Source: Eledone cirrhosa
Taxonomy: Eukaryota
Assembly (NCBI GenBank): GCA_964016885.1
Contig: OZ024752.1
Location: 47,616,001 to 47,680,000 of the forward strand
Direction: 5' to 3'
DNA: 64,000 bases
The translations under genes were made by a program, and so were the position numbers. Under the pieces are notes generated by a model. That model did no database searches and had not been told where the DNA came from. It saw nothing but the letters and a program-made list of their open reading frames with translations. Shown piece by piece: positions 3,103-5,006 of this stretch (within the stretch, counting starts at the first letter, position 1; each line of letters starts with the position of its first letter).

Positions 3103-3393
3103 ATACATTAACAGAGAAAGCTTTAAGCAATACTCTGACCAACTCCATCTCACTCAACAAACATTAGGATATACCTAAGTATAATCCCAATTAAGTGTTT
3201 GGGGTGCTAACTATATAGTATTCCATGGAAAGTTGGTTGTATTATTTTATATGAGACATAATTATATAAATATATATATATGCAGAGGTTACATTTAATT
3301 TGTTGGGATTCAACAAGCACAGGGATTAAACAGATTAGTGGAGTAAATACGCAATATATTAATAAATGGAAACTATATTTATAAAACCATATT

Positions 3394-3459
3394 TATTTTA
3401 ATATATATATTTCAAGGGCAACCAAGGCAAATTATGGTGCGCTTTCATCAGATAAAATA
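3394..3459 (-). ncRNA. Type I hammerhead ribozyme motif
   Basis: Minus strand TATTTTAT-CTGATGA-AAGCGCACCA/TGGTTGCCCTT (imperfect stem II)-GAAA-TATATA-TA-(T)TAAAATA; the first stem I pair is broken in this copy. Confidence 0.75.
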
Positions 3460-3530
3460 CAGATTTGTTTTATAAATAAATATTGACATACCTGGAAAAA
3501 AAGACAACCTTGGTTGCCCTTGAAATATAT

Positions 3531-4970
3531 ATAATAAAATAAATATATAATAAAATAAATATATAATAAAATAAATATATAATAAAATAAATATATAATA
3601 AAATAAATATATAATAAAATAAATATATAATAAAATAAATATATAATAAAATAAATATATAATAAAATAAATATATAATAAAATAAATATATAATAAAAT
3701 AAATATATAATAAAATAAATATATAATGAAATAAATATATAATGAAATAAATATATAATGAAATAAATATATAATGAAATAAATATATAATGAAATAAAT
3801 ATATAATAAAATAAATATATAATAAAATAAATATATAATAAAATAAATATATAATAAAATAAATATATAATAAAATAAATATATAATAAAATAAATATAT
3901 AATAAAATAAATATATAATAAAATAAATATATAATAAAATAAATATATAATAAAATAAATATATAATAAAATAAATATATAATAAAATAAATATATAATA
4001 AAATAAATATATAATAAAATAAATATATAATAAAATAAATATATAATAAAATAAATATATAATAAAATAAATATATAATAAAATAAATATATAATAAAAT
4101 AAATATATAATAAAATAAATATATAATAAAATAAATATATAATAAAATAAATATATAATAAAATAAATATATAATAAAATAAATATATAATAAAATAAAT
4201 ATATAATAAAATAAATATATAATGAAATAAATATATAATGAAATAAATATATAATAAAATAAATATATAATAAAATAAATATATAATAAAATAAATATAT
4301 AATAAAATAAATATATAATAAAATAAATATATAATAAAATAAATATATAATAAAATAAATATATAATAAAATAAATATATAATAAAATAAATATATAATA
4401 AAATAAATATATAATAAAATAAATATATAATAAAATAAATATATAATAAAATAAATATATAATAAAATAAATATATAATAAAATAAATATATAATAAAAT
4501 AAATATATAATAAAATAAATATATAATAAAATAAATATATAATAAAATAAATATATAATAAAATAAATATATAATAAAATAAATATATAATAAAATAAAT
4601 ATATAATAAAATAAATATATAATAAAATAAATATATAATAAAATAAATATATAATAAAATAAATATATAATAAAATAAATATATAATGAAATAAATATAT
4701 AATGAAATAAATATATAATAAAATAAATATATAATAAAATAAATATATAATAAAATAAATATATAATAAAATAAATATATAATAAAATAAATATATAATA
4801 AAATAAATATATAATAAAATAAATATATAATAAAATAAATATATAATAAAATAAATATATAATAAAATAAATATATAATAAAATAAATATATAATAAAAT
4901 AAATATATAATAAAATAAATATATAATAAAATAAATATATAATAAAATAAATATATAATAAAATAAATAT
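3531..4970. repeat. 16-bp minisatellite (ATAATAAAATAAATAT)~90
   Basis: Phase recurs every 240 bp (15 units); occasional ATAATGAAAT variants near 3727-3793, 4223-4240 and 4687-4704. Confidence 0.97.
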
Positions 4971-5006
4971 CGTTTTATAAATATAGTTTCCATTTATTAA
5001 TATATG

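What the first reader, a model, noticed from the sequence alone, without database searches (positions are those of the whole stretch)
3354..5005. A 1.44-kb satellite born at a hammerhead cleavage site, with its single-copy progenitor preserved next to it
Seen: the ~90 x 16-bp array interrupts one arm of an inverted duplication. The other arm (3354-3427) has the same sequence only once, where it forms the helix III / cleavage site / stem I strand of a minus-strand hammerhead (GAAA-TATATATA|ATAAAATA-AATAT). The unit spans the predicted scissile bond and is bounded by AAATAT microhomology. Known: PLE RTs are the sister group of telomerase RTs. Inference: the array may be reiterative, telomerase-like copying of a short RNA segment at a cleaved or ligated junction during insertion. 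Ordinary DNA slippage after insertion is the alternative.
Basis: partly seen in the sequence, partly recalled or inferred. Interest (0 to 1): 0.8.

Follow-up and report, generated by a model that had tools for sequence, protein, structure and literature searches.

The report
Minisatellite seeded at Penelope insertion junction
This 90-copy repeat sits inside one of thousands of copies of a ribozyme-bearing jumping gene; similar stutters cluster beside the joint where such copies are stitched in rather than at the ribozyme's predicted cut site, so it likely began as a copying slip during insertion and likely grew later by ordinary DNA slippage.

Summary
The anatomy is real: a head-to-head pseudo-LTR pair of a Hydra-type Penelope-like element in (TA)n, a conserved minus-strand minimal hammerhead, and a 90 x 16-bp array found only here. 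The cleavage site is not special. Exact duplication signatures occur at 27 of 10,656 motif copies there, 172 of 50,433 at +18 and 20 of 16,340 at -60. A second long array (49 x 14 bp, L490) misses the scissile bond. What duplications track is a nearby 5' junction (24 of 28 versus 0 of 30 controls in the sister subfamily), and this array starts about 20 nt from its inversion junction. So the seed likely arose at insertion, by microhomology slippage; the enzyme (element RT or host polymerase theta) is unknown. One variant in runs, with no singleton mutations beside mutated arms, points to later DNA-level growth. The left arm is a sibling copy, not a shown progenitor. Earlier scan notes describe inverted Penelope-type insertions elsewhere in this genome; I found none on junction-linked duplications. 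No long reads were available.

The parts
3271..3281 (.). (TA)n target remnant, left
   Evidence: sequence; family copies end in (TA)n
3282..3511 (-). Left arm: 5'-truncated pLTR copy of a Hydra-type Penelope-like element, running to the long 3' end (tail about 3282-3353, with a rearrangement seen in no other fetched locus)
   Evidence: 95% identical over 159 nt to the 3' pLTR of ORF-bearing copy L329; two 3'-end clusters in the family
3392..3461 (-). Minimal type I hammerhead: stem I 3452-3459 with 3394-3401, CUGAUGA 3445-3451, GAAA 3410-3413, 2-bp helix III, predicted scissile bond 3402|3401; T at 3401 breaks the first stem I pair in this copy
   Evidence: cleavage not tested
3508..3511 (.). 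Inversion junction, 4-nt CCTT shared by both arms; the same junction without an array occurs in L017/L018
3508..5005 (+). Right (inverted) arm: starts 26 nt upstream of the bond-equivalent position (3533|3534), lacks CUGAUGA, stops at the short 3' end
3527..4970 (+). Minisatellite, 16 bp x 90; 81 A-type and 9 G-type units in the order A12 g5 A26 g2 A27 g2 A16; ATAT microhomology at 3527-3530 and 3543-3546
5007..5065 (.). (TA)n / (TATG) target remnant, right

Best explanation
This is a 90-copy minisatellite inside the short inverted arm of a truncated Penelope-like insertion, whose first duplication was likely made by a microhomology slip while that arm was being copied and joined, and which likely grew to 90 copies afterwards by ordinary DNA slippage or unequal exchange. 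Shown: the head-to-head pair in (TA)n, the family, the hammerhead motif, the clustering of short duplications beside 5' junctions, and no preference for the scissile bond. Inferred: two antisense cDNAs primed from the two target ends (one from the long, one from the short 3' end) met at CCTT; about 20 nt from that joint the polymerase slipped back across ATAT (or AAATAT, then losing one AT) and re-copied 16 nt. The unit covers the bond only because helix III and stem I form a 24-nt A/T-only stretch rich in short direct repeats that lay next to this junction. Which enzyme slipped is open; I rate host end-joining synthesis (polymerase theta type) and the element's RT about equally.
For: Whole-unit duplications lie within 45 nt of the arm's 5' end in 24 of 28 cases versus 0 of 30 controls (sister subfamily, same site), 25 of 29 versus 9 of 76 (+18 site) and 12 of 23 versus 3 of 26 (this subfamily, window left out). 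The window's arm ends about 26 nt upstream. L490 has the same layout with a 49 x 14-bp array starting at the junction, made of the +18 segment and holding a patch of reversed units. The commonest periods follow microhomology length: 14 with 8 nt at +18, 18 with 6 nt, 14 via TGAAATA in the sister subfamily. Later growth: one variant in three runs with near-equal spacers; no singleton change in 89 phased units although the arms carry 2 substitutions seen in no other copy (0 of 64, 0 of 30) and 2 rare ones; about 9.5 would be expected, P(<=1) = 8e-4. Other viewed duplications have 2-8 copies. TE-derived minisatellites seeded by short direct repeats are known (PMC3389668, PMC6947457; passages); three to four other arrays in this window have single-copy relatives in interspersed repeats. 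Polymerase theta makes short, sometimes iterative templated insertions at joints (PMC12426944; passages).
Against: 11 of 23 duplications in this subfamily lie far from a junction, and an 8-copy array does too (L470), so a post-insertion seed is possible. Many near-junction cases have under 8 nt of element upstream, and some at +18 may be look-alikes from the opposite arm (L193, L200, L208); with only 8-44 nt counted the figures are 19 of 28 vs 0 of 30, 16 of 29 vs 8 of 76, and 5 of 23 vs 1 of 26. Controls come from the first 22 Mb of one contig. The bond-spanning site is twice as rich as the -60 site (p = 0.016). The G variant in the array is the same base as in a common sister subfamily (45 of 194 arms), which a single DNA mutation explains only by coincidence. 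The arm substitutions could have come from a rare source element. No reads span the array.
Confidence: 0.62

Rival explanations
1. Most or all of the 90 units were made in one bout of reiterative synthesis during insertion, by the element's RT or a repair polymerase, at a junction-near microhomology unrelated to ribozyme cleavage. The G runs would come from switching to a sister-subfamily template.
For: Both long arrays found lie in the short inverted arm at or near the junction. Short arrays at +18 mix two unit types that need two slip points on the original template (L470, L476). The G variant matches the sister subfamily.
Against: No singleton mutations despite mutated arms. Spacers of 26 and 27 units suggest block duplication, though this is weak (5% by chance). 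Copy numbers elsewhere are mostly 2-8. Known templated insertions are generally under 25 bp (PMC12426944).
Confidence: 0.15
2. Seed and growth were both ordinary replication slippage after insertion, in an A/T-only stretch; the short arm is a coincidence.
For: 11 of 23 duplications at this site are far from junctions. Deletions between the same microhomologies are common. This genome is rich in repeat-derived minisatellites.
Against: Only 3 of 26 control arms are this short, so post-insertion slips would supply about 1-2 of the 12 near-junction cases (inference).
Confidence: 0.16
3. One reading: telomerase-like reiteration of an RNA segment at the hammerhead-cleaved or re-ligated bond.
For: The unit spans the bond. 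The site is twice as rich as the -60 control. Three short duplications can be read as starting at +1 (L168, L170, L176). PLE RTs share an ancestor with telomerase RTs (PMC8557442, abstract).
Against: The array junction is not at the bond. The +18 site is as rich or richer and has its own long array. 5' ends do not cluster at +1. In the one reconstituted PLE, hammerhead mutants insert normally and uncleaved RNA is the main template (PMC11167929).
Confidence: 0.04
4. The array length is an assembly artefact.
For: No read or contig spanning it was available; the repeat was skipped.
Against: 89 phased units have no indel errors in A-runs, there is a structured variant pattern, and both flanks resume in register. 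1.44 kb is shorter than a typical accurate long read (own knowledge).
Confidence: 0.03

Closest known systems
EN+ Penelope-like elements, Hydra clade (Craig et al. 2021, PMC8557442; passages and section 11 read)
   Same: 5' truncation, inverted 5' copy, tail at one end only, hammerhead in the pLTR, (TA)n target; linked ORF with DKT, CxCx5C, CxxC and CxH motifs and C-terminal GIY-YIG.
   Different: The tail here is about 100 nt, not 30-40. Junction-linked short duplications and minisatellite seeding are not described in the passages read.
TE-derived minisatellites seeded at short direct repeats (Alu-derived arrays; Haber-Louis model; PMC3389668, PMC6947457; passages)
   Same: A sub-segment of a mobile element bounded by microhomology expands in tandem in one copy.
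   Different: Those models place the first slip in replication or crossing-over; here seeds are concentrated beside the insertion junction, and the microhomology is only 4 nt.
Polymerase theta templated insertions (PMC12426944; passages)
   Same: Short copies of nearby sequence at a joint, sometimes iterative or patchwork, primed by minimal pairing.
   Different: No enzyme is identified here; several duplications, this one included, start 10-25 nt inside the arm rather than at the joint.
Non-LTR retrozymes / hammerhead satellites (bioRxiv 10.64898/2026.07.22.740005; part 1 of 5 read)
   Same: Tandem DNA derived from a hammerhead-bearing, Penelope-related sequence.
   Different: Retrozyme units each hold a whole hammerhead; this 16-bp unit holds no catalytic core and occurs at one locus.
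Anole Poseidon PLE in vitro (Frangieh et al. 2024, PMC11167929; parts 1-2 of 4 read)
   Same: Two RT start sites giving a tail; both strands nicked and extended; AT-rich targets.
   Different: Different clade; no reiterative synthesis is reported in the parts read.

Membership tests
EN+ Penelope-like element (Hydra clade) | pLTR joined to an ORF with RT and C-terminal GIY-YIG | tested here: met
   L329: 3' UTR continuous with close relatives L330, L331, L333; GIY-YIG E = 2.7e-4, just under the cut-off; RT-like motifs by eye, no Pfam RT hit for this family; ORF broken by frameshifts
EN+ Penelope-like element (Hydra clade) | DKT, CxCx5C linker, CxxC and CxH around conserved E and N | tested here: met
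   DKT in L329; CNCRDRSKC, CDLC and CRH in sister copy L338 against the description; RWK appears as RWR
EN+ Penelope-like element (Hydra clade) | Inverted 5' copy, one-sided tail, (TA)n target | tested here: met
   45 of 112 loci have both orientations; 3' ends cluster short (100 of 165 arms) and long (60 of 165)
EN+ Penelope-like element (Hydra clade) | Placement in the Hydra clade of an RT tree | not tested
   no reference Hydra sequences were held
Minimal type I hammerhead | CUGANGA and GAAA cores, stems I and II, NUH triplet | tested here: met
   copies were picked by a core-motif pattern, so core invariance is by construction; this copy has a U-U mismatch at the first stem I pair; no Rfam hit
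Minimal type I hammerhead | Self-cleavage | not testable with these tools
   needs an RNA assay
Non-LTR retrozyme | Whole hammerhead in each tandem unit | tested here: not met
   the 16-bp unit lacks CUGANGA and stem II
Telomerase-like reiterative product | Fixed template boundaries reused across events | tested here: not met
   periods of 9-18 nt with varied boundaries at this site; the 16-mer trimer occurs at one locus
TE-derived minisatellite | Unit is a sub-segment of the element bounded by short direct repeats, flanks resume in register | tested here: met
   the repeat is 4 nt, below the 5-10 nt of the Haber-Louis model, unless the route was via an 18-mer

The most novel reading that the evidence does not exclude
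Penelope-like insertion is itself a minisatellite factory: near the end of cDNA synthesis the telomerase-related RT realigns on short microhomologies and reiterates 10-18-nt segments, now and then dozens of times and across templates of different subfamilies, so this array and L490 would be fossils of repeat-addition-like activity in a retrotransposon RT, independent of the hammerhead cut.
Probability: 0.1. Interest if true: 0.8.

Novelty: new variant of a known kind. Interest (0 to 1): 0.38.

Why it matters
[quoted passage not shown] Here a few hundred short duplications in one retroelement family point to the insertion junction as the birthplace, with two cases grown to 49 and 90 copies. That gives a countable genomic readout of the least understood step of Penelope transposition, the making and joining of the inverted arm, and a direct test of whether the RT or host end joining does it. 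It does not support a link between hammerhead cleavage and telomerase-like repeat addition.

Tried and rejected
Rfam at gathering score: no hammerhead. One search gave 37 matches, all viewed; most were point mutants, not duplications. A -75 control gave 3 hits, 2 real, but no denominator was measured, so it is not used as a rate. The sister-subfamily site (67 hits) also has no denominator; 30 of 67 were viewed. At +18, 30 of 172 were viewed, plus 7 loci, of whose 169 matches 100 were listed. The -60 site was not run through the junction test. Sequencing runs were short-read contigs and RAD-seq with at most 0.42 of words shared; laying them skipped the repeat and says nothing on array length or alleles. 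An indel catalogue of 112 loci was too sparse and was selected for an intact site. PDB search with the ORF found nothing useful. I first called the ORF Neptune-like (note) and dropped that after reading the Hydra motifs. The PLE fragment at window 39.2-40.3 kb is another family and not this element's ORF. Literature searches found no paper on junction-linked duplications in PLEs; subscription papers and supplements were not seen, and Cervera and de la Pena 2014 is known only as cited in the papers read.

Full report
Observation. The array is at 3527-4970, 16 bp x 90.2, 99% matches. It interrupts one arm of an inverted pair. A strict scan of both strands of the window found a hammerhead-like motif on the minus strand at 3392-3461, with CUGAUGA, GAAA, a 2-bp helix III and an 8-bp stem I; Rfam did not detect it. 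Three exact units in a row occur nowhere else in the assembly. The left arm has T at the first base after the predicted bond where the array has A; A on the plus strand at 3401 was seen in 4 of 142 other copies. At period 16 the microhomology is ATAT; AAATAT gives period 18. The array junction lies at -7..-4 / +10..+13, not at the bond, and the array is in the arm that lacks CUGAUGA.

What the element is. The window lies at G000:C12:47616001-47680000 in a 3-Gb assembly; earlier scan notes call the host an octopus (unchecked). The un-duplicated 35-mer has 5,901 exact matches and a downstream 17-mer shared by more subfamilies has 50,433. These are motif counts, not copy numbers. In 112 loci, 45 had both orientations, and 3' ends fell into a short cluster (100 of 165 arms) and a long one (60 of 165). 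The window's left arm runs to the long end at 3282 and the right arm stops at the short end, both in (TA)n. This is the layout described for PLEs: inverted 5' copy and a tail at one end (PMC8557442, passages), with the tail traced to two RT start sites in vitro (PMC11167929, parts 1-2 of 4). Copy L329 links this pLTR (95% over 159 nt) through a 3' UTR to a frameshifted ORF with a weak GIY-YIG hit. DKT, CxCx5C, CxxC and CxH motifs in L329 and L338 match the Hydra clade description; no tree was built. Across 48 copies picked by a core pattern, 96.6% of hammerhead cells pair, with two-sided changes at 4 of 16 pairs; relatedness inflates such counts.

I used one pattern design at three sites: a 9-mer, a gap of 0-9, then the same 9-mer with its normal 8-nt flank. 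Matches per motif copy were 27 of 10,656 at the bond-spanning site, 172 of 50,433 at +18 and 20 of 16,340 at -60. The bond site does not differ from +18 (p = 0.16) and is twice the -60 rate (p = 0.016). The counts include some junction look-alikes and point mutants. Periods at the bond site vary from 9 to 18. The longest other runs seen there were 3-5 copies (L051, L097, L166, L401, L462); a three-unit search in the sister subfamily gave 9 matches at 6 loci. A three-unit search at +18 gave 169 matches, including L490, a 49 x 14-bp array repeated at several nearby places on C8, probably by segmental copying. L490 has the window's layout, left arm, inversion junction, array, normal downstream end, but its unit misses the bond and about six units are reversed. 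Of 86 arms anchored downstream, 6 ended downstream of the core, at scattered places, none clearly at +1. In the anole element hammerhead mutants insert normally.

What duplications do track. Viewing the hits showed most in short arms. I measured how far element homology runs upstream, against 156 full-core arms. After dropping 4 hits that were not whole-unit repeats and the window itself, homology ended within 45 nt in 24 of 28 duplicated arms versus 0 of 30 controls (sister subfamily), 25 of 29 versus 9 of 76 (+18), and 12 of 23 versus 3 of 26 (this subfamily). Counting only 8-44 nt, to exclude bare junction fillers, gives 19 of 28 vs 0 of 30, 16 of 29 vs 8 of 76, and 5 of 23 vs 1 of 26. Limits: 30 of 67 and 30 of 172 hits were examined, controls come from the first 22 Mb of C1, some +18 hits may be mimicry by the opposite arm, and 11 of 23 duplications in this subfamily are far from any junction. 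The window's right arm reaches about 26 nt, like L398, L407, L418 and L422. I infer that most near-junction duplications arise during insertion. The data cannot tell an RT that slips and soon falls off from a repair polymerase that starts at the joint; polymerase theta makes short, sometimes iterative templated insertions (PMC12426944, passages), and the reversed patch in L490 leans that way.

Growth to 90 copies. The units run A12 g5 A26 g2 A27 g2 A16; 3 of 200,000 shuffles gave 3 or fewer runs, and spacers this close arise in 5%. So one variant was propagated from neighbour to neighbour, or a second template was used in bouts. There is no singleton change in 89 phased units, while the arms carry two substitutions seen in no other copy (0 of 64, 0 of 30), two rare ones and a unique tail rearrangement. 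With two changes in about 305 bases, 9.5 are expected in the array, P(<=1) = 8e-4; with one, P = 0.05. This favours an array younger than the insertion or still turning over, unless the source element already had those changes. Unexplained: the G variant is the base found in a common sister subfamily (45 of 194 arms). Chance, gene conversion, RNA editing or template switching could each give it; I did not test these.

Progenitor. Arms of 25 head-to-head pairs are more alike than random arms (2.2 versus 5.5 mismatches in 66 nt), but 5 of 25 differ at the helix III A/G site and L025 differs at four sites; those five came from a similarity-selected set. The right arm's C at 4971 is also in the 5' pLTR of L329. 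So the left arm is a sibling copy and need not be the template.

Comparison and verdict. The element is an ordinary member of a known kind, and TE-derived minisatellites seeded at short direct repeats are known (PMC3389668, PMC6947457; passages); other arrays in this window have single-copy relatives in interspersed repeats. It is not a retrozyme, whose units hold a whole hammerhead (part 1 of 5). The link between short duplications and PLE 5' junctions was not found in the searches, nor in scan notes; subscription papers and supplements were not seen. No long reads were available. Odds: seed at insertion with later growth 0.62, all post-insertion 0.16, one-bout synthesis 0.15, cleavage-site reiteration 0.04, artefact 0.03. 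Interest 0.38.

Noticed in passing
window 39240-40340 (+): 5'-truncated PLE of another family (RT C-terminal part and GIY-YIG-like end, with stops); similar ORFs in L330 and L332 hit RVT_1 and GIY-YIG weakly. CTGATGA motifs at about 38913 and 41021.
   Followed up: partly
window 2653-2796: 71-bp near-perfect hairpin in (TA)n, running on into a common repeat end; looks like an inverted pair of another PLE-type family; also flanks L329 and L006.
   Followed up: no
window 10629-11942, 30051-30340, 33406-34324, 25662-26185: Minisatellites of 72-85 bp whose units have single-copy relatives in interspersed repeats at 8134-8209, 42029-42104 and several SINE-like copies.
   Followed up: partly
L490 (G000:C8:39139549-39140230) and copies to about C8:40.14 Mb: 49 x 14-bp array at an inversion junction with a patch of reversed units, repeated at several places in about 1 Mb.
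   Followed up: partly
L185-L187 (G000:C24:3384341-3384563): Both arms of one inverted pair carry the same 32-nt compound duplication, twice in one arm and three times in the other; the source already had it, or one arm was copied from the other.
   Followed up: no
L002, L006, L012, L025, L029: Arms of one insertion differ at subfamily-variable sites, suggesting two templates in one event.
   Followed up: partly
L017/L018 (G000:C6:54.71 Mb): Same CCTT inversion junction as the window, without an array but with a deletion between AAATAT repeats.
   Followed up: partly
L334-L338: Near-full-length Hydra-type elements of sister subfamilies flanked by inverted pLTRs 3.3-3.8 kb apart.
   Followed up: partly
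window 43287-43344; similar heads near 1480 and 7150: tRNA-like SINE heads (by eye).
   Followed up: no
L219/L220 (G000:C1:35.19 and 36.07 Mb): Two loci share the same patchwork junction with repeated short copies of stem I sequence.
   Followed up: no
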